Shown here in pieces: positions 2,527 to 40,597 of a DNA stretch of 41,599 bases (within the stretch, counting starts at the first letter, position 1; each line of letters begins with the position of its first letter). Under the pieces are notes generated by a model that searched no databases, had not been told where the DNA came from, and was given only the letters and a program-made list of their open reading frames with translations. The stretch comes from a virus (lineage: Duplodnaviria > Heunggongvirae > Uroviricota > Caudoviricetes): the IMG/VR virus record IMGVR_UViG_2740892231_000012; one strand, written 5' to 3'. A program made the position numbers and the translations under genes.

Positions 2527-4566
2527 TTATTCTGTTACCGCTTTTTTCACTTCCACCACAATGCTGTCAATCAGCACCGGGTAAGTTGCATTTTTTGTGA
2601 TATCCGTTACGCGGAGTTTGTCCACCGGGAAAGTTCCTACTGGTGACTGCGTCAGGGTAAACGCGGCACCATCCTGACCATCAATAACCGGAATAACCTG
2701 AAGGCTGTTATTTCCTGCAAAACGGAAGGCCAGCGTATGCCATTCATTATCAAATGCACCAAAGGTTCCCAGTTTCTGGTTATTTGTTGCCACTTTTGCA
2801 TTGTGGTACATCACATTCAGGTCTTTTGCGTCTGTCTGGATGTAGAACGATGCCAGCAGATTATTCCCTGCATCCCCTGTCAGGGTGACACCCTGCGGCA
2901 GAGAGGAAACCGGCCAGTAAAGCGCCATGACATACTGGTTTGCCACCAGGTCGCCCGGTACTTTAAAACGACAACTGATTAAACCACCATTTTTCAGCAG
3001 TTCAGCACCAGTACCGGCATCATGATCCAGATACCAGGATGATTTACCTGTTTCCTTGGTCAGTTTCATTGCCTTACCACCTGTGCCTCCTGCATCACTG
3101 ATAATTTCAGCTTTACCGCCAGCCGGCTCCCAGCCCTGGGCTTTCAGATTTCCTTCTGACTCACTGACACGGTAAGACAGCAGTGTTGTGGTTACTGCTT
3201 CAGTTTCTGAAGGTGACGGCACTGGTGCTTCAGTTTCAGAAGATGGAACATCGGCTTTTACTGTGGTTCGCCCCGCATGAGTCAGAACTGCCGTGGCCAG
3301 ACGGTCGGAAATAATCCCACGACGTGCCCATGAACTGAAATGGCTGGCCCGGTCCGTAGATGTCCAGGTGGCGGCACTGTTACGCCACGTTGAGCCGTAA
3401 TAACCAATGGATTCAATATCCGGGTCTTCTGCCGGATTGTTGGTGGGTACATTCGCGCCATTTTCATCTGTCATTAATGGGACGAAATGAATGTTTTTAT
3501 CTGTTTTATTTTTGTAGCCGTCATAGATTGCCTGGTATGCCTGTTCGTTTTTCTGTTTCCAGAAATACGTGGTATCACCACAAATCCACGGAACGCCAGC
3601 AGCACTGCCACCGGTACACTGTTCCGCCTGTTCAGCCAGGTCTGCGCGGAATTTTTCCACCATCGCCAGAAACAGCGCAGAATGCTCCGTCGGCTTCGCA
3701 TCAATATCAAACTCGCCCTGCATCCACACCACAGCAAGCAGGCGGTTTTTCGGGTTCTTCGCCAGTGCCGCTTTTGTCCGGCTGATTAAGTCCTTATACA
3801 GCGGCTTATCCACACCCCAGCGGGCTGAGTCCTCTGAAGCACCCGTGCTGTCACTGTACGTGCCGTCAGCACCCACCGTGAATGCAGAACCACCACGGCA
3901 GCAGGGAACCAGCAGAATCCCCGCATCTGCCGGAATAAACGGCAGCAGTTTTTTGGCAATGTGAAGCCCCTGACCCACGGTGCCATATTGCCCTTTAGCC
4001 ACATCCGCTTTCGGGTGATTTTTTCCACTCATATCCTGCACATCATGCAGACAGTGGTCGGCCAGAATGATGTCGTTATACTGACAGGCTTTACCTCCCG
4101 GCGTGACTGTACTGCGACGGGCTAACTGCATAATACGCGGTTCGGGGCGGTCATATGTCTCCGGCAGTGGCAGACCTTCACCGTAAGCCATACCGTTTGA
4201 CTGACCAGCAAGAACCACCACGTAATACCAGGAAGGGGAGCTGGAAGCAGTTTCATTTCCTGACGGACGGGTATGTGTTTCAGCATTATCCCAGTCTGAC
4301 GGTTCAGCAGTACCGGCAACATCAGCACTTAACGGAATGACCGCACCAATACCCGCTCCGGTAATTTCCACACTCGGATCACCGGATACTGGCCTTACCC
4401 ACAGGCAATCCCGGGTATTAAAACTGATGAGACAGTCAGCAAATGTCATTCCTCCTTTTGTTTCGGCCGGAGGAAAGGGAGCCTCAAGAAATGCCGCTGT
4501 ACCACCGGAAACTTTAACAGTAAAGTTTCCGGGCATTGATGATAGTTGAACCCATTTGGACGTCAT
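2527..4566 (-). CDS. Putative carbohydrate esterase, sialate O-acetylesterase (SASA/DUF303) family, resembling prophage NanS-p; cargo gene
   Basis: 679-aa ORF with VVVLAGQSNGMAYGEG, which matches the GQSN catalytic-serine motif of SASA-family SGNH esterases. Long C-terminal domain looks like a carbohydrate-binding module. Sits between gin and com, where Mu has no gene. Confidence 0.6.
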   Translation of the reverse strand: MTSKWVQLSSMPGNFTVKVSGGTAAFLEAPFPPAETKGGMTFADCLISFNTRDCLWVRPVSGDPSVEITGAGIGAVIPLSADVAGTAEPSDWDNAETHTRPSGNETASSSPSWYYVVVLAGQSNGMAYGEGLPLPETYDRPEPRIMQLARRSTVTPGGKACQYNDIILADHCLHDVQDMSGKNHPKADVAKGQYGTVGQGLHIAKKLLPFIPADAGILLVPCCRGGSAFTVGADGTYSDSTGASEDSARWGVDKPLYKDLISRTKAALAKNPKNRLLAVVWMQGEFDIDAKPTEHSALFLAMVEKFRADLAEQAEQCTGGSAAGVPWICGDTTYFWKQKNEQAYQAIYDGYKNKTDKNIHFVPLMTDENGANVPTNNPAEDPDIESIGYYGSTWRNSAATWTSTDRASHFSSWARRGIISDRLATAVLTHAGRTTVKADVPSSETEAPVPSPSETEAVTTTLLSYRVSESEGNLKAQGWEPAGGKAEIISDAGGTGGKAMKLTKETGKSSWYLDHDAGTGAELLKNGGLISCRFKVPGDLVANQYVMALYWPVSSLPQGVTLTGDAGNNLLASFYIQTDAKDLNVMYHNAKVATNNQKLGTFGAFDNEWHTLAFRFAGNNSLQVIPVIDGQDGAAFTLTQSPVGTFPVDKLRVTDITKNATYPVLIDSIVVEVKKAVTE

Positions 4567-4860
4567 AATAATCAGCCTGTTCCTGAATAAACTGAATTAT
4601 CATATCCACAGACCGATAAACGCCATTTTGCGTTAATTCAGTAAAGGCCCAACAAAGGGAGCGTCTTATTTTTCCGAAACGCTCGCAGGATAATAACGAT
4701 AAAGGGTTGAAAGGCCGATATCAAAAATAAGTGCCACCTGTCTTCGACTGACACCCCCGGCCAGTAAACGCCCAACCTGCTCGTATTGTTCCTGCGTGAG
4801 ACGGCGGGGTCTGCCGCCGGTTCGTCCCCTTTCACGGGCAGCNNNNNNNNNNAGAGCGTC

Positions 4861-5603
4861 TTATTTTTCCGAAACGCTCGCAGGATAATAACGATAAAGG
4901 GTTGAAAGACCGATATCAAAAATAAGTGCCACCTGTCTTCGACTGACACCCCCGGCCAGTAAACGCCCGACCTGCTCGTATTGTTCCTGCGTGAGACGGC
5001 GGGGTCTGCCGCCGGTTCGTCCCCTTTCACGGGCAGCTGCAAGACCAGCCCGTGTCCGTTCGACAATTAATTCACGCTCCATTTCTGCCAGCGCACCCAT
5101 TATGTGAAAAAAGAAGCGCCCCATGGGGGTTGACGTATCAATGTTGTCAGTAAGACTACGAAAATTTATCCCCTGTTGCTGTAATTCATCTGTCAGCGCA
5201 ACAAGGTGGCGCATACTGCGCCCCAGCCTGTCCAGTTTCCAGACCATCAGCGTGTCACCGGGTTTTAGTTTCTTCAGTGCCCGCTTCAGTCCCGGCCGCT
5301 GTGTCGTTTTACCACTCATTTTGTCTTCAAAAATCTGCTCACATCCTGCACATTCCAGCGCATTTCTTTGTAAACCGGTGTTNNNNNNNNNNACATACTG
5401 CGCCCCAGCCTGTCCAGTTTCCAGACCATCAGTGTGTCACCGGGTTTTAGTTTCTTCAGTGCCCGCTTCAGTCCCGGCCGCTGCGTTGTTTTTCCGCTCA
5501 TTTTGTCTTCAAAAATCTGCTCACATCCTGCACATTCCAGCGCATTTCTTTGTAAACCGGTGTTCTGGTCATTTGTTGATACGCGTATATAGCCAATCAG
5601 CAT
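4861..5603 (-). CDS. gin: Gin DNA invertase (serine recombinase); coordinates include an N10 gap at 5383-5392 and its duplicated flank
   Basis: MLIGYIRVSTNDQNT...GDTLMVWKLDRLGRSM...INFRSLTD...GRFFFHIMGALAEMERE is closely similar to Mu Gin / Hin-family invertases. A second copy of the gin 3' end at 4666-4842 is a gap-flank duplicate. Confidence 0.9.
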
Positions 5604-5665
5604 GTATTTACCTTCCTTAAAAAGAGGTGGAAAAGCCTTTTAAAGCAGATATACGGCATCCCTGA

Positions 5666-5692
5666 AACCTCGGTTTACGGGATACGGTAAAC
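5666..5692. promoter_or_regulatory. gix-like recombination site, right boundary of the invertible segment
   Basis: AACCTCGGTTTACGGGATACGGTAAAC resembles the Mu gix core and is an inverted copy of the site at 7206-7232. Lies directly upstream of gin. Confidence 0.6.
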
Positions 5693-6037
5693 AGGGCCGC
5701 GAATGCCCTGCCATCAAACGGTACGGCTGTTGCAGCAAGCAGGCTGGCAAATGCCCGCAGAATCAATGGTGTCGCCTTTGACGGCACGCAGGATATAAAC
5801 ATTACGTCAGGAATGCCGGAATCAACGGCCAATCAGCGTTATGTTACAGGGGTAAGACTGGGAGCGCAGGCATTAAGCGGCGGACTGGAATATAATTACT
5901 CCCTGTCATCAGGAAATGTGATTACCGGTTTTAAGACTGACGGAGACTGGGAAATGCGTGGTGGTGATGACCGTGTTTATTACAGACAGATACAATATTG
6001 TATTAATGGGCATTGGGTATCCGCTGCAAGTATTTAA
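5681..6037 (+). CDS. Silent alternative tail-fibre C-terminal cassette (S'v-like), promoterless in this orientation
   Basis: Translation DTVNRAANALPSNGTAVAASRLANARRINGVAFDGTQDINITSGM... parallels the S segment ...TVNKAADALPSGGTAVAANRLATPRNINGVPFDGTLDINITSGM. C-terminal YYRQIQYCINGHW parallels YYRPVQIYINNAW in S. Confidence 0.6.
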   Translation, partial: DTVNRAANALPSNGTAVAASRLANARRINGVAFDGTQDINITSGMPESTANQRYVTGVRLGAQALSGGLEYNYSLSSGNVITGFKTDGDWEMRGGDDRVYYRQIQYCINGHWVSAASI

Positions 6038-6158
6038 TTAACGGGGGCATAGCACACAGCAGCCAGCATCTGAAATATGCGTTATTTCAGACAAGCATTG
6101 CCTGTATATGGCGATAGTATTATTCCTGTTTTTATCATTGATTTACATGGTGATGTTT

Positions 6159-6810
6159 ATGCAACTGATTAATGTCAAACGATATTACCCGAAAGACAAA
6201 CCCTATGGTGAGGATGTTCAGTATTTCCAGAGTGAGGACGGAAGGGATTTTTATGAATCTATCCCGCTTTTTACAAAGAAATACAAACTCTGTATTTCGC
6301 CTGTAACGGGTATTATCTGCTCTGTTGCTGAAGATGTCTCTGCTTTATATCCGGCAGGTTTTACTGTTGTTGAAGTGGACGAACTGCCGGAAGGTGTGAA
6401 TATTGACGGTAACTGGCAGTTTTCTGATGGCCTGATATCAAAGGTGCCGGTAAACTGGAAGACGGTTGCTGAAAAGCGCCGCTCATCGCTGCTCCAGGAA
6501 GCCAACGAAACTGTGGATGACTGGAAAACGGAATTAAAACTGGACATGATTAGCGATGAAAATAAATTACAGCTGACGCGCTGGATGGCGTATATCCGNN
6601 NNNNNNNNTCGCTCATCGCTGCTCCAGGAAGCCAACGAAACCGTGGATGACTGGAAAACAGAATTAAAACTGGACATGATTAGCGATGAAAATAAATTAC
6701 AGCTGACGCGCTGGATGGCGTATATCCGACAGCTTAAAGAAATGCACCTTAATGATATTGCCAGTGAGGGGCATTACCAGGCGATTCCCTGGCCGGAAAA
6801 ACCGGAATAA
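6159..6810 (+). CDS. Tail-fibre assembly protein (U/Tfa family); includes N10 gap at 6599-6608 and duplicated flank
   Basis: Similar to Mu U: ...GIICSVAEDVSA..., ...FTVVEVDELPEG..., and C-terminal ...MISDENKLQLTRWMAYIRQLKEM...IPWPEKPE. Confidence 0.75.
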
Positions 6811-6844
6811 TTCAGAGGGTGCATTCAGCACCCTTTTCTGTGGT

Positions 6845-7756
6845 TTACACTGAACTTACCGTTCTCCAGGCATTATTAATATAAATCTGAACCGGGCGAT
6901 AATAGACCCCACCGATATTGTCCGCAGACCGGGAGCCGGTTTCCTGCACGTTAATACCGGAAAGCATACAACCGGAAGGTGCGCTGTAATTCCATGACAT
7001 TTCATTGCCTCCGGGTGAATGATAGCTCTGTGCTCCAAGCTGAACATTCTGTACATACCGGCCATCTGCGGTTGACTGCGTCATTCCTGACGTGATGTTG
7101 ATATCCAGCGTTCCGTCAAAAGGAACACCATTAATATTTCTTGGGGTGGCGAGTCTGTTTGCTGCCACGGCGGTTCCACCCGATGGCAGGGCATCAGCAG
7201 CCTTATTTACCGTTTCCCGTAAACCGACGTTATCGATAAAAGCGCCTTTATCCGGAATGTCTGCGCCGTTCTGCTCCCTGCGCAGGTAACGGTTATCACC
7301 TTCGCTTTTGCTGTAAACATCCAGATTATTACGGGCGGTTCCCGCATTCTCCAGGTCGGCAAGGTTCTGATCCTTCGCCAGAGCATTAACGTCACCGGGA
7401 CCAAGACTGTTTTTTGTGGCAAGCGCCCCAAGACCAAGATAACCACGGGCAAGACGCTGGGCTTCCGCACCGGCATCAGCAATTTCTTTCAGGTTGTTTT
7501 TCCGGGAAAAGGCATTCGCAGCGATAATGGCTTTAATGGACAGCGTAAGCTGGTTTAACTGCGCCTTATCCGGCTGAATACTGGCTTCAGCCAGAATATT
7601 CAGCAGTTCGGCCTGGAGAATATTCAGCCAGTCCTGACCAATCCAGCTGATACCTTTTTGTCCGTCACCTTCGGTAAACCAGGTGGTGGTATTACTCTGC
7701 GCCGGAGCCAGTTCAGGCATATTCGCCACGCCGGAATTATTATCAACATGGAACAT
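6845..7756 (-). CDS. Tail fibre protein S (constant part plus currently expressed variable C-terminus)
   Basis: Start MFHVDNNSGV uses an ATG overlapping the stop of the upstream baseplate gene (TAATG), preceded by GAGGAG. Contains the gix-like site at the constant/variable junction. Confidence 0.75.
   Translation of the reverse strand: MFHVDNNSGVANMPELAPAQSNTTTWFTEGDGQKGISWIGQDWLNILQAELLNILAEASIQPDKAQLNQLTLSIKAIIAANAFSRKNNLKEIADAGAEAQRLARGYLGLGALATKNSLGPGDVNALAKDQNLADLENAGTARNNLDVYSKSEGDNRYLRREQNGADIPDKGAFIDNVGLRETVNKAADALPSGGTAVAANRLATPRNINGVPFDGTLDINITSGMTQSTADGRYVQNVQLGAQSYHSPGGNEMSWNYSAPSGCMLSGINVQETGSRSADNIGGVYYRPVQIYINNAWRTVSSV
7206..7232. promoter_or_regulatory. gix-like recombination site inside the S coding sequence, left boundary of the invertible segment
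   Basis: TTACCGTTTCCCGTAAACCGACGTT is the inverted counterpart of the 5666-5692 site. Confidence 0.6.
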
Positions 7757-8316
7757 TAAATATTCTCCTCTTCGTGACTGTTTGCATATACGTAAATAAA
7801 CGTCTGCCATGCAGGCTTATAACGGTTCAGAATACATTCCAGCGCACCACCCTCATAAATACGCAGCGGGGTGAGAATATCATCCAGCACATTCATATTC
7901 CGGTAGCCGGTTTCACTGTTTATCGTGACAATACTGACCCACTGTGAATCCGGTGATGGCTGAATATCTATTTCATAACCAAACTCTGCCGCAAACCGGA
8001 TATAAAATTCACGGTTCAGCGAAGGCTTCATCCGGTATTTATTCCCGGCATAACGCTGTCGTTCTGTGATGGTGGCTCCGGCCATATCACACTCGGGAAG
8101 GCCGAGATAACGCTCCCAGTCTTCCAGAAGCAGACGGGAACTGTCAGGGAAACGTTCTGCCAGCAGTTGTTTTCCCGTCCATGCAACACGTTCGGTGGAA
8201 TGGCTGAGGCCAAGGCATAACGCAGCCAGTACGGATGACGGCCGCTTGTCCCAGGCCAGTCCGTCAGGCAGCAACTGCAACAGGGCGCGCTGATGCGGAG
8301 TGAGGGTTACAGCCAT
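7756..8316 (-). CDS. Baseplate protein (Mu gp48-like)
   Basis: 186-aa ORF placed between the baseplate J-like gene and the tail fibre gene, as in Mu; translationally coupled to both. Confidence 0.6.
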   Translation of the reverse strand: MAVTLTPHQRALLQLLPDGLAWDKRPSSVLAALCLGLSHSTERVAWTGKQLLAERFPDSSRLLLEDWERYLGLPECDMAGATITERQRYAGNKYRMKPSLNREFYIRFAAEFGYEIDIQPSPDSQWVSIVTINSETGYRNMNVLDDILTPLRIYEGGALECILNRYKPAWQTFIYVYANSHEEENI

Positions 8317-12889: not shown

Positions 12890-15097
12890 AGTTCCCTCCG
12901 TTCCAGACGTTCACATCCAGGCCATGCTGTGCGGTATCATCCACATCAATACTGCGTGCCCGCCAGCCTTCAGGGGCCACAAGCTCCACCCGTGCGGCGG
13001 TTTTCGCGGTGGCCTGTCCGCCATTTTCATCACTGCCCCGTAATTTCTGCCAGGCTTCGGTCAGCCATCCCCCCAGATAATCACCGAGATAACTGCCCAC
13101 CGTGGAGCCAATGGCAACCCCGACCGGACCGGCGGCAGCCCCCAGCGCGCCACCGGCGATACTTCCGGCAAGGGAACCCATGGCACCGGCTTTATCAGCT
13201 GCACTGGCGCTGTTGTCCAGCAGTACAGGAGCCGCCATGGCACCGGCCCACAGGGCACCACCGCCCAGCCGACCGGCACCACGGAACAACCCGGCAAAAC
13301 GCCCCAGCCCCATGCGGTTTCCGGCAGCCGAAAGCAGACCACCGGCACGGCTCATCATACGACCGAAGAAGCCCTGTTTACCGGCGCTCTCTGCCAGTTG
13401 TTCGCCTGCGGTCACAACGGTCGGGACACCCCGCCCACGTCCGGGGCCGCGTTTTTTACGGCCGCGCACGGTTTTGCCGTCACCGCTGACCACCACATCC
13501 CCGCCACCTGATGCCAGACCACCCGCAGGCCAGTTGGTGACCAGTACGGGCTGAACGGCAGCAGGATTTACCCCGGTAAGAAAGTTCATAAAACGCTGGC
13601 CGCGTCCTGGCTGCGTGCCCGGAACGGTGGTCTGCGGTTTACGAAAAGGCGAGGTCAGCACAGCGGCCGTGGATAACCCGTACCCCAACAATGCCGCCCC
13701 CGGTCGCAGTGCCCCAAGACCTATGGCGCGGACAGCCTTCAGCGCACGGGTGGCGAGATACATATACAGGAGATATTTCGCGGCGGTCTGTGCGCCCTGA
13801 CCAATGCGATCCAGCGCATCGCCATAACCAGCGTCACGCAATGCCTGAAGCGTTTCCCTGACTTTCTGAATGGCCCGGTAAAACCCCGTCGCTGCGTCTC
13901 TGGCATACTCAAACCCCTGATTCAGGGCTGAGGCTGTTTGTGTGGCCAGCTTGTCCTNNNNNNNNNNGCAATGCGATCCAGCGCATCGCCATAACCGGCG
14001 TCACGCAATGCCTGAAGCGTTTCCCTGACTTTCTGAATGGCCCGGTAAAAACCCGCCGCTGCGTCTCTGGCATACTCAAACCCCTGATTCAGGGCTGAGG
14101 CTGTTTGTGTGGCCAGCTTGTCCTGTAAGCCGCTTTTCTGTGCCGCATCGGCATAATCCAGGAAGCCTTTCAGGCTCTTTTTCAGGTTGTCAAATGGCCC
14201 TTTTGCCATTACTTCACGGGCAAATCCGTCCCAGACGTCGCCCATCATGGATGTCATCCCTGTCCATGAGTTCATGGCGTTTTTCTGGGCACCTTTTGCC
14301 TGTTCGGCCATCACCTGAAATAACAGCCGAATGCTGTCCGGTCCCAGTTTTCCTTTCTCGCCTTTCTCACGGATGATCTTCTGGTTTACACCCAGTTTAT
14401 CGGCCAGCAACTGGTAAACGTTTATCCCGTATCCGGTCAGGATACTGGCGTCCGCAGCCTGGATACTCTGGCGGGCAAACATCTGTTTGAGTTGCAGGGA
14501 CGCACCCTGTGCATCTGACAGTGACCAGCCGTGATAGCCGCCCTGATCCTGAAGCATGGTAATAAAGCGGCGGGCTTCCCTGTCACTCATACCGAACCCG
14601 CGACTGGAGGCGTATTCCTGCATAACCCCCGCCAGTCCCCAGGTGGTTTCCTTTGCGTTCTGTACCGCCCAGGCTTTCACTGCTTCCGTTTTTGCCGTAT
14701 CGCCATGATTAATGGCATTGAGACGCAGAATATAGTTCTCCATCTCTGCGGCCGGGCGGATAAAGGCTTTATTAAAACCATAGACCGCAGCCCCTCCTGC
14801 CAGCATCCCGTAAAGGTTGCTGAGACGTCCCAGCGTGCCGGTAATACTGCCCTGAAGACGGTCAAAATCCGACGTTACCGTGCGGATACTGCCACGGACA
14901 CCGGCAAGCGTACGCTGCATACGGGAGCCGACAAGCTCTGTCTCCTGACCGGCACGGCGGGCTGCATTTCCAATTCCACCCAGCCCCGTCCTGCCGACTC
15001 GGGAGAACGCCCCCAGCTCCTGTGACCACTGGCGGGATTTGGCAGAAACATTGCCGAGTAAATCGACAATCAGGGAGGCTTTCAGGTTTTTTGCCAT
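12876..15097 (-). CDS. Tail tape measure protein; interrupted by N10 gap at 13958-13967 with duplicated flanks
   Basis: Long, Ala/Gly-rich, largely helical ORF between the tail chaperone and DNA circulation genes. The track splits it into 391-aa and 321-aa pieces at the gap. Confidence 0.8.
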
Positions 15098-24989: not shown

Positions 24990-26938
24990 CCCCGATCAAA
25001 TTCATGATATGCCTCATCGTCATCACGATAACCGCCCTCCATGGCCCGCGACCGCTCCGGCAGCGCCTGGCAGGCTGATTCATCCAGGATAAAGCCCTCC
25101 ATGTATGACGCCCGGTTTGCCATACAGAGCGCCACGGCAAAATCACCATGGCGGCGGGCGTTCACAGCCGTTGCGTTCTGGTCCTTCGTACGCCCCTTGT
25201 CGATTTGCGGGATACCGTTCACCACCTTCACATGGCGCAAATCATCAAGCGTGGTCTGATGGCGGGCGATGAGGATATTCTGATCCTCAAACTCGGCCTT
25301 CAGTTTTGGCATCCACTCGCCGTACCACTTCGGCGATAACATCACGCAGTCGATGATGTCCGGGCCAAAGGCCAGCAGCGCGGCTTCGGCCAGATAGCCG
25401 CCGTTACCGGTGGCGTCGAACGCCGCACCGACCAGCGCCGGAACGCGGGTCAGGATGTACATCATCACCTGCTCCTGCTGGGCATACGGCAGGTTGCGCA
25501 GCTCCACGCGAAACACCTCGCGTTTTGCCAGGGATTCAGTGATTTCCAGCAGCACAAAGCAGGAGAGGTCACCGGTGCGGGCAAAGTCTTCCCCGAAGCT
25601 GAAGCGGGAACGGGGATTTAACGCCTCTAAAAGCGGTTTTAAATGTTCTTCACACCAGGTTAAAACCTCCGATTCACGCAGCCATGTGGCACGGCTGATG
25701 AAGTCGTCCGGGGCTTCAAACGTCAGAATCGGGATGTCGCGGAGCATCGCCATTTCAATAAGCGCGTGAGGAATATAGGCACCGCCGGATTTTTTCGGGA
25801 TACAGCCGTATTCCTCGTCGGCATCCTCACGNNNNNNNNNNCGGCACGGCTGATGAAGTCGTCCGGGGCTTCAAACGTCAGAATCGGGATGTCGCGGATC
25901 ATCGCCATTTCAATAAGTGCGTGAGGAATATAGGCACCGCCGGATTTTTTCGGGATACAGCCGTATTCCTCGTCGGCATCCTCACGGGTCGGGGCGTTTT
26001 TGTAGAGATCATCACGCCACTTCTGCTCGCTTTCCGGTGACCATTCGCGGCCGGTGACATAACAGATACGACGGTACAGCCCGTCCGCAATGGCATCATC
26101 CAGGGTAATGCGGTGGACGCTGTAATCCTTGCGCCCTTCGCGGGCTTCCTGAATGTACTGATTAAACAGATTATCGACGCCGTTATGCGTGGAGATAATA
26201 CGCACGCGCGCGCCCCACATGGTGAGCGCCATTGCCGCCTTGAGAAGCTCATCCAGTGACTCGTGGAACGCGGCTTCATCAATCACCACATCCCCCTGAA
26301 GGCCGCGCAGGTTTGACGGACGGGAAGACAGTGCCTGAATTTTGAATCCACTGTTCGGAAAGCGGATCATGTAGGTCAGAATTTCTTCTTTTTTATCCCG
26401 ATCCCAGAAGGTCTGCTCATACACATCAGCATCTGCCAGCTGGTTAAAGGCACGGGAGAACAGTGCACAGGCAGAAATATATTCCAGCGCCATCTCCTGC
26501 TTTGACCCCACATAAAACACATTGCGGCCACCGCGCCGCTTCGGTTTTGCAGCGGTAATGACGTTACGCCCGGCTTCCGCCCAGGTAAGCCCGGTGCGGC
26601 GGGATTTTTCCGCGATGCAGACCTCGCTTTCATCCTCAAACCAGCGGGCCTGATAATCCAGAAATACCGGCATATCACCGGGCAAATCAAGGCTGTCCGG
26701 CACATCCACGCCCAGCAGGGCTTTTTCACCGGCCAGATCAATTTTGCGGGTNNNNNNNNNNTTCGCTTTCATCCTCAAACCAGCGGGCCTGATAATCCAG
26801 AAACACCGGCATATCACCGGGTAAATCAAGGCTGTCCGGCACATCCACGCCCAGCAGGGCTTTTTCACCGGCCAGATCAATTTTGCGGGTGGAGACGGTA
26901 TTCGTCAGTAAGGGGGAGAGTTCTTCGGCGTTATTCAT
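24980..26938 (-). CDS. Terminase large subunit; includes N10 gaps at 25832-25841 and 26751-26760 with duplicated flanks
   Basis: Large ORF split in the track into 66-, 385- and 257-aa pieces sharing repeated text at the gaps; position upstream of portal. Confidence 0.8.
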
Positions 26939-27625
26939 CAGGCTTTACCCAACAGAATCCCCTTAATACGGGACTCAAGCTGTTCACTCATCCCGTCCAC
27001 GCCGCGCAGCTCGTCGGTGACGGCGTTTGCCATCTCTTCAGCAAATGCGGCCCGGATTTCTTTTTCACGCTTAATGCTGCGCTCGGCGGCACTTTCCGCA
27101 CGCTGTGCTGACAGGAGGATGTCCTTAATAAGACGCATATCCACGTCGCTGTCACTGTTCAGGGATTCGGTCGCGGCACGCAGACGGCGGTACATCAGGG
27201 CGCGGGACATCTCCAGAATCAGCGCTGTGGTTTCACCGGTTGGCTTGTCTCCCAGTTCGGCCATCATGGCTTTTGTCTGCTCGCGTAAATCACGCAGGTT
27301 ACGGGCAATCAGCTCATTNNNNNNNNNNTGCAGTGGTTTCACCGGTCGGCTTGTCCCCCAGTTCGGCCATCATGGCTTTTGTCTGCTCGCGTAAATCACG
27401 CAGGTTACGGGCAATCAGCTCATTACGGGAGGCTTCCCGGCTGATGGCCGCCGGTGAAAGCTGCTGCTCTTCCGGCAGGCCCGCCTCACGGATCAGACGG
27501 TTGATTTCCTCGCGTATCTGGACCTGCGTCAGACGTTTTTCACGCAGCATTTCCAGCAGTGGCTTACGGATGCTGTCGGGGAGCAAATCCACCTTGCGCA
27601 CGCGTCCACGCGTCGGCTTGTCCAT
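26938..27625 (-). CDS. Putative terminase small subunit-like protein (Mu gp27-like); includes N10 gap at 27319-27328
   Basis: Basic N-terminus MDKPTRGRVRKVDLLPDSIRKPLLEMLREKRLTQ then helical region; ATGA overlap with the terminase large subunit start. Confidence 0.55.
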
Positions 27626-29292: not shown

Positions 29293-29879
29293 CCGCCGAA
29301 CGGCGGGCCTCAAGGCCGGGGAGTTTCACCCCCTTTGAATAAATCCAGCGGATATACTGCTTACAGGACGCGGGCATCTGCCCGGCATTGATCAGGCGCA
29401 GAAGCGTGGAGTTGCGGAAGTTCGTTTCACCGGCCCAGAAGATCCACGAAGCCAGCGCCACAGTCTGACCACGGGTAAGCGGCACCTGAACACGCCGATC
29501 AATGGCCGCAAAGGCCCATTTCATGTCCTTNNNNNNNNNNAAAGTTCGTTTCACCGGCCCAGAAGATCCACGAAGCCAGCGCCACCGTCTGACCACGGGT
29601 AAGCGGCACCTGAACACGCCGATCAATGGCCGCAAAGGCCCATTTCATGTCCTTTTCCAGTAGTTCCAGGCATTCTTCATCTGTCAGGGTCATACCCGGT
29701 TTCACATCCGGGCCGGTATGGCCGTAACAGATGGTGGGTGTACCGGTGGGATCGATATACGTGGAGTTTTCTTTCCCTTCCCAGTAACCGGTGTAATGCG
29801 TGGCAATCGTGAACGTCCCGGCACCGGCCAGAACAAGGGCAATCAGCTTTTTACGCAGTGGTGCGGGGAGTTTTGGCAT
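29255..29879 (-). CDS. SAR endolysin (lysozyme-like); includes N10 gap at 29530-29539 and duplicated flank
   Basis: N-terminal signal-anchor-release segment LIALVLAGAGTFTIATHY, then TICYGHTGPD... and ...VPLTRGQTVALASWIFWAGETNF..., similar to Mu Lys. Confidence 0.8.
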
Positions 29880-30445: not shown

Positions 30446-31139
30446 TTAACGGGGAAGTGATTTTTCATACTGCCTGCAAACGGCGTCATACCCCATCAGC
30501 GTGCGTTCGGGCATTCCCATCGCGGCCAGCATTTTGCGGCGGTGCCATCGCTTGAGACGCTCCAGCACATCTGAGGCCAGGGCGGGGTGTTGCTCCAGCC
30601 ACTGCCAGTTTGCCACACCTTCGCCGCCGTTCTGCGCGGCCGTCTGCGATTTCACCCAGCGGTTAAGAGCGGTTTCCGCACCATCAGAGATAAAGCCCTG
30701 CCGGTGCATCACTTTCCAGATGGCGCGAATTTTGGCGGTCACCGTACCCGGTTTTAAGGCCCGGTTAACCGGTTTCTGACGCACTTTAAAACCGCGTTTT
30801 TTGAAAACATCCAGCACGCGGGATAACTCATCCGGTGACATNNNNNNNNNNGGCGGTTTCCGCACCATCGGTGATAAAGCCCTGCCGGTGCATCACCTTC
30901 CAGATGGCGCGAATTTTGGCGGTCACCGTACCCGGTTTTAAGGCCCGGTTAACCGGGTTCTGACGCACTTTAAAACCGCGTTTTTTGAAAACATCCAGCA
31001 CGCGGGATAACTCATCCGGTGACATATCCCGGCAGCTGGTTTTGCCGGTAGCTGCCAGCAGCGCGGATGTATAAGTCTCATCATCCAGGGCAAGCTCGCG
31101 CTTTGCCACATGAATGGCGGATATCAGTTTTCCTCTCAT
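30446..31139 (-). CDS. gemA: GemA-like protein (Mu gp16 family); includes N10 gap at 30842-30851 and duplicated flank
   Basis: MRGKLISAIHVAKRELALDDETYTS...TGKTS...MSPDELSRVLDVFKKRGFKV fits the GemA family pattern. The track shows the same text on both sides of the gap. Confidence 0.65.
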
Positions 31140-32026: not shown

Positions 32027-32573
32027 CTATTCATTTGCTTTATCCTCCATGCTGGACAGAATCATATGTATTAATGTCGGGCGTGGAGATATACGCATTT
32101 CATTAAGCGTCTGAAGGGCAGCAACAGCTGCCTGTTTATCGGTGCCTTTGGCAATCTCTGCAAGAGAATGCACAATCCATAACGGACTTAACGCCACGGC
32201 TGAATCCAGAATCATGTCATCCATAATAATTTCTGGCATATCCCGCTTGTCACATTCTTCATCCATAAAAGAAACGATTTTTTCTGCTTCTTCCGGTTTC
32301 ATGCCTCCGGCGATGAGAATTTTACGATATTCATAAGACGATCTTAATTCAATACTNNNNNNNNNNTTCAGCAAGAGAATGCACAATCCATAACGGGCTT
32401 AACGCTACGGCTGAATGCAGAATCATGTCATCCATAATAATTTCTGGCATATCCCGTTTGTCACATTCTTTATCCATAAAAGAAACGATTTTTTCTGCAT
32501 CTTCCGGTTTCATGCCTCCGGCGATGAGAATTTTACGATATTCATAAGACGATCTTAATTCAATACTCATCAT
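32027..32573 (-). CDS. Hypothetical early protein (about 112 aa real length); includes N10 gap at 32357-32366 and duplicated flank
   Basis: MMSIELRSSYEYRKILIAGGMKPEDAEKIVSFMD... appears twice across the gap. Confidence 0.4.
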
Positions 32574-38391: not shown

Positions 38392-40597
38392 TCAGGCCAG
38401 CGGGTCATTTTCTTTTAATTTCGCTTCGAGCAACTGCAATCCCCGCTGGAAATTGCGCTCGTATTCTTCATCAGGCTCATCATCAACGGCAGGTTGCTGA
38501 ACGGCCACCGTATTACCTACCGGGCGATAGATGTTTTCCAGCCAGGGCTCCTGCGGCTTGTGCTCCAGCACGTTGACAACCTCATCCTCGGCATCACGGA
38601 TTTTTTCCTCTGCGCGTTTACGCATGCCTTTAAGGCGTTGCTGCTGTTTGTAGTATTCCGCGCTAACCGGGAAGGCTTCGCGTTTATTACCGTCCCATAC
38701 CGCCTCGCAAATCACGCTGCCATCCAGGCGACGTACGGTAATTCGTTCGGCATCATGAATGTCATAGCTGATAAGCACCTTGCGGCCATGCTCATCACGC
38801 AGCTCGGGCGCGTAGTAAATATTATTCAGCCAGCGTATTTCACAGCGTCTTACAGGGCGTTCCACCATCGGCCGGAACATGTCCCGCAATTCCACATCGG
38901 ACAGCCATTCAATTTCCGTGTCCTCTTCCGCCAGGCGTTTTTTTCTGAACTCCGCCGGGCTGTAATGCTTGCCGTTCGGCTTCACCGGTAATTCATCGTG
39001 CGGCCGGTTGTTGTACCACTCAACACCATCACGAATGGCATCAATCAGTTCAGACCAGGACGGTAAATCACGCATCGCTGACTGCTGCCGGGCGTTCAGC
39101 CGTTTGCCCTGTTGCAGGGCAGTAAATGCCGAGCGTAAATCGCGGTTGGTTTTGCGTAACGTCTCGCGATCTGCACCTTTCCCGAAATAGGTGCGGTATT
39201 TACGGGCTATGCGCATCGGTAATGTGCGGTTAAGCCGTTCGATAATGCCTCGTCCCTGCGGATTACCGGCAATCCCGGTCGGGTGATTAATCCCCAGTCG
39301 CGGCAGTATCCCCACAACCTCCTTATCCAGGATGTCGGCGGTTTCCCCGGAGCCGTTATCCGAGTAATACAGAAACGGTTTGCCGTGATGGCGAATGCCG
39401 TGCTGTATGGCACCGGCTACGGCGAAAACATTTTCAGCCAGGTCAAGGCTCCAGCCCACCACAAAGCGCGTGCCACCGTCGATAACAAAGGTCACTTCCG
39501 GTGCAAATGGCCGACCGTGAACCGGGTGTGCGCATTTCAGCTTCATGCCGTGACCGTCACCAATCCAGACATAATTCACCGGCATTTTTGACCAGTCGCG
39601 GCGCGTGAATCCCTCAAGCTGGCGGTATTCACTGCCGGTCACCCGGCCTTTTTGTTTCACCACTTCCGGCAGTTTCTTCATTGCGCGGCGAATGGTGTCA
39701 TAAGACGGCATGATATCGAGCATATAAGGCTCATCAGCGTGCCGGTGCTGCCATTCAGCGACAAAATCCTCGTAAGCCTCGGTCATTGGTCGGCCGTTTG
39801 ACTGGCGATACTGCGCCAGAAATTCGGGCAGCCAGTTAATATCTTCGGCTTTTATTTCCTGGCGCTTACCCGGTGCCAGTAAAAGCAGGCGTTCAGCGGC
39901 GTTCTGCGCCTTGTTAAAGGCCGCAATCCAGCGTTTCAGCGTGATTTCACTTAACGCGCGGCTGTTTCCCTTTTTGGCGTTCGCCGTCTCAACCATTGCC
40001 ACAATGCGCTCGTCCAGCTGCGAACGNNNNNNNNNNTGCAATCCAGCGTTTCAGCGTGATTTCACTCAACGCACGGCTGTTTCCCTTTTTGGCGTTCGCC
40101 GTCTCAACCATTGCCACAATGCGCTCGTCCAGCTGCGAACGTGCCAGGTTGTCAACGATAAACCGGATAGCCTTCGCACAGCTGAAACCAGGTTGTTGCG
40201 CGACTTTCAGAACTTCGCTGACGATCGCGATTCGTGCATCAGCCACCTGGCGCTGGTTTTCAGTCAGGGCATTAAGGCGTTCGAGCATCAGTTGTGGTGA
40301 TCCGCGATATGCCTCCACCGCATCAACCACGGCAGGCGAGCGTCTGGCCTTTGTCACCACCGGAGCTGGTGATTCATCGGCTTTTTGCGTCATCAGTTGC
40401 AGGGCGTAGCGTTCACGTAATGCCTGCTGCGTCACTTCAGGTAAACAGTCGATGCTGTATTCAGTTGCTTTAGAGCCTGAGCGACGACGGGAACAACAGC
40501 TTTTCCCTTGTACGTAACGTTGTAATGCCTGGCGAATACCTTTTGTTGTAGCAGGCATTCCGGGCGCGCCAATCAGTTCTTTTGCAATGACATACAT
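38392..40597 (-). CDS. A: DDE transposase A (MuA-like); includes N10 gap at 40027-40036 and a duplicated flank of about 100 bp
   Basis: Long ORF downstream of ner, with MuA-like N-terminal DNA-binding region and catalytic core. The track shows ...ARSQLDERIVAMVETANAKKGNSRALSEITLKRWIA on both sides of the gap. Confidence 0.9.

What the first reader, a model, noticed from the sequence alone, without database searches (positions are those of the whole stretch)
5666..7232. Compact G-like invertible host-range segment with only one tail-fibre assembly gene
Inverted gix-like sites (5666-5692 and 7206-7232, the latter inside S) plus about 200 bp of inverted coding homology define a 1.57-kb invertible cassette next to gin. 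Unlike Mu, which has U and U', only one assembly gene is present, and it is co-oriented with the silent fibre cassette, not the expressed one. The current S variant therefore has no chaperone gene downstream.
Basis: seen in the sequence. Interest (0 to 1): 0.6.

Follow-up and report, generated by a model that had tools for sequence, protein, structure and literature searches.

The report
One-chaperone invertible tail-fibre switch
This is a real Gin-type invertible host-range segment of a Mu-like E. coli prophage (the Sp18 type) that swaps two tail-fibre tips but carries only one fibre-assembly gene, a compact layout that turns out to be common in prophages and leaves open how the chaperone is supplied in the commoner orientation.

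Summary
Two inverted gix sites bound a segment next to an intact Gin-family invertase. The 26-bp cores are at 5658-5683 and 7214-7239, each with a central TC. The segment holds a promoterless alternative fibre tip (S'v), one tfa gene, a hairpin, and the expressed tip (Sv) of a 303-aa Mu-S-like fibre.

The N10 gap at 6599-6608 hides nothing. Its flanks overlap by 120 nt, and the collapsed sequence matches finished E. coli genomes end to end. The true segment length is 1426 bp, not 1.57 kb.

Inversion is real. My in-silico flipped sequence occurs at 99.6% identity in finished genomes: 183 genomes carry the window orientation and 26 the flipped one.

The element is the Sp18-type Mu-like prophage, whose invertible host-specificity region was noted in 2009. 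One tfa instead of two is a true departure from Mu, P1 and e14, but it is not unique. A survey of 80 invertase loci found the layout in two diverged lineages and in P2-like prophages.

Sv is under strong purifying selection. Sv-like tips in five other phages all have a tfa 2-5 nt downstream. The nearest Tfa relative follows an Sv-like tip.

Most likely one Tfa serves both tips. How it is expressed in the window orientation is not shown. Interest is modest.

The parts
4861..5603 (-). gin/pin-type serine DNA invertase. It is 186 aa after two assembly duplications are removed; the true coding sequence is 5603..5393 plus 5210..4861.
   Evidence: Pfam Resolvase 1e-50 plus HTH_7 1.7e-14. It is 75% identical to Mu Gin and 72% to e14 PinE, and its 5' region aligns with the enhancer-bearing 5' region of Mu gin. 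RefSeq calls it 'recombinase family protein'.
5658..5683 (.). gix-type crossover site next to the invertase (ATCCCTGAAACC TC GGTTTACGGGAT)
   Evidence: 19/26 match to Mu gix, with central TC. The core repeat is found only twice in the window, against 0 expected.
5666..5844 (.). left arm of the 179-nt inverted repeat, the conserved start of the variable fibre part
   Evidence: 75% complementary to 7053-7231; alignment.
5671..6037 (+). S'v, the silent alternative fibre C-terminus (about 122 codons). It has no start codon or promoter of its own.
   Evidence: Translation. In-silico inversion gives an in-frame 298-aa S'. This fusion is annotated as a complete 'phage tail protein' in strain Z869. 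The tip is 57% identical to the Mu S tip.
6038..6158 (+). 121-nt AT-rich spacer between the S'v stop and the tfa start. Its first ~35 nt are a relic of another tip's 3' end.
   Evidence: Alignment with variants L017, L008 and L023. Spacers are 51-121 nt in all single-tfa variants, against -4 to +20 nt in two-tfa segments with two outliers. Only weak sigma-70-like matches, 8-9 of 12, were found.
6159..6810 (+). tfa, the single tail-fibre assembly gene (173 aa). Window positions 6479-6608 are an assembly duplication plus gap.
   Evidence: Caudo_TAP PF02413 at 67.5 bits against a cut-off of 22.1. Homologous to Mu U, PDB 5YVQ_B, E 1e-15. 51% identical to Rac-SA53 tail2. RefSeq product is 'tail fiber assembly protein'.
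6814..6836 (.). GC-rich hairpin between the converging tfa and S genes. It looks like a terminator on the + strand and has a weaker U tract on the - strand.
   Evidence: Terminator scan. Folds give -15.3 kcal/mol (z -3.1) and -14.7 kcal/mol (z -4.0).
6845..7226 (-). Sv, the variable C-terminal part of the fibre that is expressed in this orientation
   Evidence: Part of the 303-aa ORF. The tip is 60-64% identical to the SfMu S' and Rac-SA53 fibre tips. dN/dS is 0.05-0.10.
7053..7231 (.). right arm of the 179-nt inverted repeat
7214..7239 (.). gix-type crossover site inside S (reverse complement: TTATCGATAACG TC GGTTTACGGGAA)
   Evidence: 22/26 match to Mu gix, with central TC.
7227..7756 (-). 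Sc, the constant N-terminal part of tail fibre S. Its start overlaps the stop of the gp48/YmfQ-like baseplate gene.
   Evidence: Residues 1-198 are homologous to Mu S 1-191, PDB 5YVQ_A, whole-protein E 5.6e-49. RefSeq annotates a 912-nt CDS.

Best explanation
This is a working two-state Gin-type host-range switch of an Sp18-type Mu-like prophage.

How it switches: the invertase recombines the two gix sites, one of which lies inside fibre gene S. The constant part Sc is thereby joined either to Sv (window state, 303 aa) or to S'v (flipped state, 298 aa).

The single chaperone: the two tips are homologous members of the Mu-S/P2-H tip family, and the segment carries one tfa that most likely serves both. 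In the flipped state tfa lies downstream of S' in the late operon. In the window state it faces S across a hairpin, so it would have to be transcribed on its own. tfa does have its own ribosome-binding site and a 51-121-nt AT-rich spacer where the canonical systems have tight translational coupling.

Shown here: the anatomy, the in-frame alternative fusion, natural occurrence of both orientations at the predicted crossover, a single tfa, purifying selection on Sv, and recurrence of the layout.

Inferred, not shown: that one Tfa serves both tips, and that tfa is expressed independently of orientation.
For: Anatomy.

The gap hides nothing.

Inversion: the in-silico flipped sequence is found at 99.6% identity and 100% coverage in strain Z869, with S' and then tfa annotated. 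Among 5,426 genomes, 183 have the window orientation and 26 the flipped one. Both orientations also occur in IMG/VR contigs.

Sv is functional: dN/dS is 0.05-0.10 at dS 0.7-2.6 in three comparisons.

Tfa is normally needed for such tips: Sv-like tips in Rac-SA53, SfMu S', Actinobacillus pPE4, Pectobacterium POP15 and a P2-like phage each have a tfa 2-5 nt downstream.

The single Tfa fits Sv:
- Its closest relative outside the family (Rac-SA53, 51% overall and 67% in the fibre-binding N-domain) follows a tip that is 64% identical to Sv and about 30% to S'v.
- In Mu and SfMu the same U-type Tfa accompanies both an S'v-like tip (Mu S) and an Sv-like tip (SfMu S').

The layout is maintained, not decaying: it is kept in relatives whose Tfa is only 61-64% identical, and in a lineage whose invertase is 81% identical, with tfa under purifying selection wherever dS was measurable.

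tfa is detached from its upstream gene: the spacer is 51-121 nt in single-tfa segments, against -4 to +20 nt in two-tfa segments apart from two outliers.

Role of the N-domain: that the Tfa N-domain binds the fibre tip, and that Mu Tfa stays on the virion, is taken from PMC9608196.
Against: - No convincing promoter for tfa was found. Sigma-70-like matches are weak (8-9 of 12) and no more numerous than in shuffled sequence.
- The spacer sequence is not conserved between S'v alleles.
- A search for a Mu C-box-like dyad found nothing near tfa.
- The link between tip type and Tfa N-domain is loose. Other phages with Sv-like tips have N-domains only 24-39% identical to this one.
- Some loci with a single Tfa-HMM hit have a tightly coupled tfa (L043, L051, L062, L066, L082).
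- The orientation counts are not phylogenetically independent.
Confidence: 0.5

Rival explanations
1. The Sv tip folds and works without Tfa. The switch then toggles two things at once: the tip sequence, and whether a Tfa cap is present on the fibre end. S' would carry bound Tfa and S would be naked.
For: In the commoner orientation tfa is antisense to the late operon and has no demonstrable promoter. 183 of 209 carrier genomes sit in this orientation, and Sv is under purifying selection. Mu Tfa stays on the mature fibre and contributes to host recognition, as summarised in PMC9608196.
Against: All five Sv-like tips inspected in other phages have a tightly coupled tfa. The closest relative of this Tfa follows an Sv-like tip.
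Confidence: 0.2
2. The segment is a decayed derivative of a two-tfa G/P-type segment. The chaperone for Sv was lost, and the window orientation yields non-functional fibres.
For: Mu, SfMu, e14 and the EPEC Mu-like prophage all carry two convergent tfa genes. The spacer holds a relic of a former tip end, which shows past rearrangement.
Against: Sv has dN/dS of 0.05-0.10. The one-tfa layout persists across lineages that have diverged to 61-64% Tfa identity and 81% invertase identity, with intact ORFs. The supposedly defective orientation is the majority one. Sp18 is reported as apparently intact and efficiently packaged (PMC2669165).
Confidence: 0.1
3. In the window orientation Tfa is supplied in trans by tfa genes of co-resident lambdoid or P2-like prophages.
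For: Hosts such as O157 carry many prophages (PMC2669165). Functional substitution between Ur-lambda Tfa and T4 gp38 is reported, as cited in PMC9659904.
Against: The fibre-binding N-domain is variable and specific. The layout occurs in many unrelated host backgrounds and in IMG/VR contigs. Depending on another prophage would be an unstable strategy for a transposable phage that moves between hosts.
Confidence: 0.1
4. The single tfa is an assembly artefact, and a second tfa lies in the gap at 6599-6608.
For: The window has an N10 gap inside tfa.
Against: The gap flanks overlap by 120 nt at 97.5% identity. The collapsed sequence aligns without a break to 183 finished genomes. RefSeq annotation shows one tfa. 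The stop-free antisense stretch inside tfa (130 aa) is not conserved in diverged relatives, where it is 67 aa.
Confidence: 0.01

Closest known systems
Sp18, the Mu-like prophage of E. coli O157:H7 Sakai, and its relatives
   Same: It is the same element family. The window is 99.6% identical over this region to finished STEC genomes, and Sakai-era protein accessions appear in the relatives. [quoted passage not shown]
   Different: Nothing structural differs. In what I could search, the published remark does not analyse the single-tfa layout, the two S'v alleles or the orientation bias.
Phage Mu G segment (Gin/gix; S-U and S'-U')
   Same: The invertase is 75% identical. The gix sites match at 19-22 of 26 positions with the same central TC. 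Sc is homologous to Mu S residues 1-191, the tips are homologous to the Mu S tip, and Tfa is homologous to U and U'.
   Different: The segment is 1.43 kb, against about 3 kb in Mu. It has one tfa instead of two. The fibre is 303 aa, lacking the ~230-aa middle part of Mu S (504 aa). tfa is separated from its upstream tip by 121 nt instead of 2 nt.
e14 P segment of E. coli K-12 (pinE; stfP-tfaP / tfaE-stfE)
   Same: The neighbourhood is the same, YmfQ(gp48)-fibre-[segment]-invertase, with a compact segment and an invertase 72% identical.
   Different: e14 has two convergent tfa genes and unrelated tip types.
Multi-cassette inversion systems in P2-like prophages (EPEC E2348/69 'shufflon', PMC4272514)
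   Same: They use Gin-family invertases and alternative fibre C-termini. In my IMG/VR sample, P2-like loci L036 and L071 have one chaperone gene with two silent tips.
   Different: Those have three crossover sites and different tip families. The window has exactly two sites.
Carotovoricin Er tail-fibre inversion (Nguyen et al. 2001; cited in PMC4272514; details from my own recollection, paper not held)
   Same: It is a very compact invertible fibre-tip segment bounded by 26-bp repeats next to an invertase.
   Different: I could not read the paper, so its chaperone content is unverified.

Membership tests
Gin/Pin/Cin-type phage host-range inversion system | Serine invertase of the resolvase/invertase family encoded next to the segment | tested here: met
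   Resolvase 1e-50 plus HTH_7. 75% identical to Mu Gin and 72% to PinE.
Gin/Pin/Cin-type phage host-range inversion system | Two inverted 26-bp crossover sites with the same central dinucleotide | tested here: met
   Sites at 5658-5683 and 7214-7239, both with central TC, matching Mu gix at 19/26 and 22/26. Exactly two sites in the window, against 0 expected by chance.
Gin/Pin/Cin-type phage host-range inversion system | One site inside the fibre gene, so that inversion swaps the C-terminal part in frame | tested here: met
   In-silico inversion gives an in-frame 298-aa S'. The same fusion is annotated in natural genomes.
Gin/Pin/Cin-type phage host-range inversion system | Both orientations actually occur | tested here: met
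   183 genomes in one orientation and 26 in the other. Both are seen in IMG/VR contigs. Coexistence within one culture was not tested.
Gin/Pin/Cin-type phage host-range inversion system | Fis-dependent recombinational enhancer in the 5' part of the invertase gene | tested here: inconclusive
   The first 150 nt of gin align well with Mu gin and e14 pinE. Fis binding and enhancer activity cannot be tested with these tools.
Canonical Mu G / P1 C / e14 P architecture | Two fibre-tip plus assembly-gene sets (S-U and S'-U') | tested here: not met
   Only one Caudo_TAP gene lies between the sites, and the gap hides nothing.
Tfa / Caudo_TAP tail-fibre assembly proteins (Mu U type) | Sequence membership | tested here: met
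   PF02413 at 67.5 bits against a cut-off of 22.1. Match to 5YVQ_B at E 1e-15.
Tfa / Caudo_TAP tail-fibre assembly proteins (Mu U type) | Encoded immediately downstream of, and coupled to, the fibre gene it serves | tested here: not met
   In the window it is convergent with S. In the flipped state it is downstream of S' but 121 nt away, against -4 to +20 nt in canonical pairs with two outliers.
Tfa / Caudo_TAP tail-fibre assembly proteins (Mu U type) | Needed for trimerisation of the fibre tip and bound to it | not testable with these tools
   This needs co-expression or knockout experiments.
Mu S-type tail fibre | N-terminal baseplate-attachment part and C-terminal tip homologous to Mu S | tested here: met
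   Whole-protein E 5.6e-49 against 5YVQ_A, with residues 1-198 aligned to Mu S 1-191 and residues 229-302 aligned to 435-503.

The most novel reading that the evidence does not exclude
The inversion may switch more than the tip sequence. It may also switch whether the fibre carries a Tfa cap. In the flipped state S' would be made together with Tfa, which in Mu stays on the fibre end and helps bind the host. In the commoner window state a chaperone-independent, uncapped Sv fibre would be made. That would make this tip the first of the Mu-S/P2-H family that needs no Tfa. The layout would then be a minimal two-receptor design rather than a shared-chaperone one.
Probability: 0.2. Interest if true: 0.55.

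Novelty: new variant of a known kind. Interest (0 to 1): 0.3.

Why it matters
Invertible tail-fibre segments are the textbook case of programmed host-range variation, and the textbook design pairs every tip with its own chaperone gene. This widespread prophage family, along with several P2-like ones, keeps a single chaperone gene inside the invertible DNA. In the majority orientation that gene faces the wrong way.

There are two ways to explain this. Either the chaperone gene has its own orientation-independent expression signal, or one tip of a normally Tfa-dependent family does without it. Either answer would refine the rules used to engineer phage and tailocin host range by swapping tip-and-chaperone modules.

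The question is small but well defined and directly testable. The element itself is ordinary and has been recorded before.

Tried and rejected
1. A second tfa hidden in the gap is rejected. The flanks overlap and finished genomes are continuous.

2. A hidden chaperone encoded antisense within tfa on the S strand is rejected. The 130-aa stop-free stretch in the window shrinks to 67 aa in relatives with diverged tfa.

3. Sigma-70 promoter scans of 5550-7850, of the gapless homologue L001 and of the spacers of five variants gave only 8-9 of 12 matches, no more than in shuffles. These are candidates, not evidence.

4. A Mu C-activator-box-like dyad (TTATG-N5-ATAA, taken from Mu Pmom) gave 10 matches against 6.3 expected, none near tfa. 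The com/mom upstream region of this prophage does not align usefully with Mu Pmom.

5. A conserved hairpin in the spacer (CTGAAATA..TATTTCAG) is rejected. The changes in L017 are not compensatory.

6. A genome-contig scan with Tfa found no relatives.

7. The EPEC E2348/69 Mu-like prophage, whose inversion was shown experimentally, is an e14-type two-tfa segment and not this family.

8. The North et al. 2019, North & Davidson 2021 and Nguyen et al. 2001 papers were not held. Their content is cited only through papers I could read, or marked as recollection.

9. I did not run structure prediction of the two tips. Both align directly to the solved Mu S tip, and a monomer model of a trimeric tip would not settle whether a chaperone is needed.
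Full report
**What is in the sequence.**

The window is a Mu-like prophage with baseplate genes gp45-48, a fibre gene, gin, and com/mom further on. It carries 15 runs of ten Ns. At 11 of these, the two flanks repeat each other over 96-201 nt at 96-98% identity, which means contig ends were joined without being merged.

Three of these joins fall in the region of interest. Two cut the invertase gene (4843-4852 and 5383-5392) and one cuts tfa (6599-6608, 120-nt overlap at 97.5%).

After collapsing them, the 2720-nt stretch from gin to Sc aligns in a single piece, with 100% coverage and 99.6% identity, to finished E. coli chromosomes. RefSeq annotation there shows recombinase, one tail fibre assembly protein, a tail fibre protein and a YmfQ-family protein.

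**Anatomy in window coordinates.**

- gin (186 aa, minus strand) runs 5603..4861 with the two duplications removed. It hits Resolvase at 1e-50 plus HTH_7 and is 75% identical to Mu Gin and 72% to e14 PinE.
- A 26-bp gix-type site lies at 5658-5683. Its inverted partner is at 7214-7239, inside fibre gene S. Both have the central dinucleotide TC and match Mu gix at 19 and 22 of 26 positions.
- The shared core occurs exactly twice in the 41.6-kb window and never in 100 shuffles.
- Inward from the sites, 179 nt are 75% complementary. At protein level the two tips stay about 41% identical to their ends.
- Between the sites lie five features:
  - S'v (5671-6037, +), which has no start codon.
  - A 121-nt spacer.
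  - tfa (6159-6810, +; 173 aa; Caudo_TAP 1.7e-18).
  - A GC-rich hairpin (6814-6836).
  - Sv (7226..6845, -), the end of the 303-aa S protein that starts at 7756.
- The true distance between crossover points is 1426 bp.

**Does it invert?**

I flipped the segment in silico at the central dinucleotides. S then reads through in frame into S'v, giving a 298-aa protein.

That artificial sequence exists in nature. Strain Z869 matches it at 99.6% over 100% of its length, with S' and then tfa annotated on one strand and the Sv cassette left as a 5'-truncated pseudogene beside the recombinase.

Among 5,426 complete E. coli genomes, 183 hold the window orientation and 26 the flipped one at 80% coverage or better. 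Both orientations also occur in IMG/VR contigs.

This is comparative evidence for inversion at exactly the predicted sites. Coexistence of both forms within one culture was not testable here.

**What it is.**

It is the Sp18-type Mu-like prophage of STEC and other E. coli. Asadulghani et al. [quoted passage not shown]

The fibre's first ~190 residues are homologous to Mu S (whole-protein E 5.6e-49 against PDB 5YVQ_A). Its last ~75 residues are homologous to the Mu S tip. The ~230-residue middle part of Mu S is absent.

**The single chaperone gene.**

Mu, SfMu, e14 and the EPEC Mu-like prophage each carry two convergent tfa genes in the segment. This segment carries one, co-oriented with the silent cassette. 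A chaperone encoded antisense within tfa can be excluded.

**Is the layout a one-off or decay?**

I fetched 80 viral contigs that encode relatives of the invertase and scanned them for inverted repeats and Tfa genes.

- The one-tfa segment is present, in both orientations, in the 98-99% invertase group. That group includes members whose Tfa is only 64% identical and whose Sc is 61-71% identical.
- It is also present in a second lineage with an invertase 81% identical, Tfa 61% identical and tips 33-41% identical.
- At least two S'v alleles, 39% identical to each other, occur with the same tfa and Sv.
- More distant P2-like loci show one chaperone gene with one or two silent tips (L034, L036, L085, L071, L079). 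Many others show the canonical convergent pair.

Selection points the same way.

| Comparison | dN/dS | dS |
|---|---|---|
| Sv tip, three comparisons | 0.05-0.10 | 0.7-2.6 |
| tfa, where dS was measurable | 0.06-0.14 | 0.09-4.3 |

These values are; two further tfa comparisons were saturated at synonymous sites and gave no ratio. The layout is thus a maintained design, and the Sv fibre is a selected product, not a dead end.

**Does Sv need Tfa, and could this Tfa serve it?**

Sv-like tips (56-64% identical) occur in Rac-SA53, SfMu (S'), Actinobacillus phage pPE4, Pectobacterium phage POP15 and P2-like phages. In all five inspected, a tfa gene follows within 2-5 nt.

The closest relative of the window's Tfa outside its own family is Rac-SA53 tail2. 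It is 51% identical overall and 67% identical in the N-terminal domain. According to work summarised in PMC9608196, that domain is the variable, fibre-binding part, and the C-terminal helices are the conserved trimerising part. Rac-SA53 tail2 follows a tip that is 64% identical to Sv but only about 30% to S'v.

In Mu and SfMu one U-type Tfa accompanies both an S'v-like tip (Mu S, 57% to S'v) and an Sv-like tip (SfMu S', 60% to Sv).

Together these results make a single shared Tfa chemically plausible. They argue that Sv is not intrinsically chaperone-free. The correlation is loose, however, because other Sv-like tips travel with N-domains only 24-39% identical to this one.

**The open step.**

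In the window orientation, tfa is antisense to the late operon and sits behind a promoterless S'v. In every single-tfa variant of this family, tfa is detached from the upstream tip by 51-121 nt of AT-rich DNA and has its own Shine-Dalgarno sequence. Of the tfa genes in two-tfa segments for which an upstream fibre ORF was found, all but two start between -4 and +20 nt from the tip stop codon. This fits independent initiation, but I could not show a promoter.

- Sigma-70-like matches are weak and no commoner than in shuffles.
- The spacer is not conserved between S'v alleles. In the window it begins with a relic of another tip's 3' end.
- A Mu C-box-like search found nothing near tfa.

The window orientation is the majority one: 183 of 209 RefSeq carriers, and most IMG/VR members of both lineages. 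That would be expected if Sv fibres are the ones that infect E. coli. These counts are not phylogenetically independent.

**Verdict.**

My estimates for how it works are as follows.

| Explanation | Confidence |
|---|---|
| The segment is a Gin-type two-state host-range switch | about 0.95 |
| One Tfa is shared by both tips and expressed regardless of orientation | about 0.5 |
| Sv is Tfa-independent, so the switch also toggles a Tfa cap | 0.2 |
| The window orientation is defective | 0.1 |
| Tfa is supplied in trans by other prophages | 0.1 |

The kind of system is well known, and the locus itself was noted in 2009. The one-chaperone architecture is a real and recurrent variant that I did not find discussed in the literature I could search. 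Interest is modest.

Noticed in passing
window 4843-4852, 5383-5392, 6599-6608, 13958-13967, 25832-25841, 26752-26761, 27319-27328, 29531-29540, 30842-30851, 32357-32366, 40027-40036: Eleven of the 15 N10 gaps have flanks that repeat each other over 96-201 nt at 96-98% identity. These are contig ends joined without merging. They duplicate parts of gin and tfa and would make gene callers report fragmented or frameshifted genes.
   Followed up: yes
window 2527-4566 (-): A 679-aa ORF lies directly downstream of gin. It has a sialate O-acetylesterase (SASA) domain and DUF6645, making it a NanS-p-like cargo gene sitting between gin and com/mom, where Mu has nothing.
   Followed up: partly
window 6038-6075: The first ~35 nt after the S'v stop codon look like the 3' end of a different fibre tip (compare L017, '...NGSWRTAGSA*'). 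This is a trace of cassette replacement by recombination. At least two S'v alleles, 39% identical, occur with the same tfa and Sv in E. coli genomes.
   Followed up: partly
L036 4200-5900 and L071 3800-5930 (IMG/VR P2-like contigs): In each locus one chaperone gene plus two tandem silent fibre tips lie next to a Gin-like invertase. These appear to be three-state systems with a single chaperone, which raises the same expression problem as in the window.
   Followed up: partly
window 5617-5802 (-): RefSeq relatives annotate a 61-aa 'hypothetical protein' here, antisense to the S'v cassette and spanning the gix site. It is probably a spurious call.
   Followed up: no
L003/L004 (E. coli FORC_044, SMN197SH3), fibre gene: In some flipped-orientation relatives, including those carrying Sakai-type protein accessions, the fused fibre gene is annotated as fragments (for example a 67-aa 'tail fiber protein'). 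This suggests frameshifts in S in part of the population.
   Followed up: no
E. coli genome hits: The orientation is strongly biased: 183 genomes in the window orientation against 26 flipped. For the e14 segment a roughly 50:50 mix within cultures is reported (PMC4272514). The bias could reflect founder orientation at lysogenisation, slow inversion or clonal sampling.
   Followed up: partly
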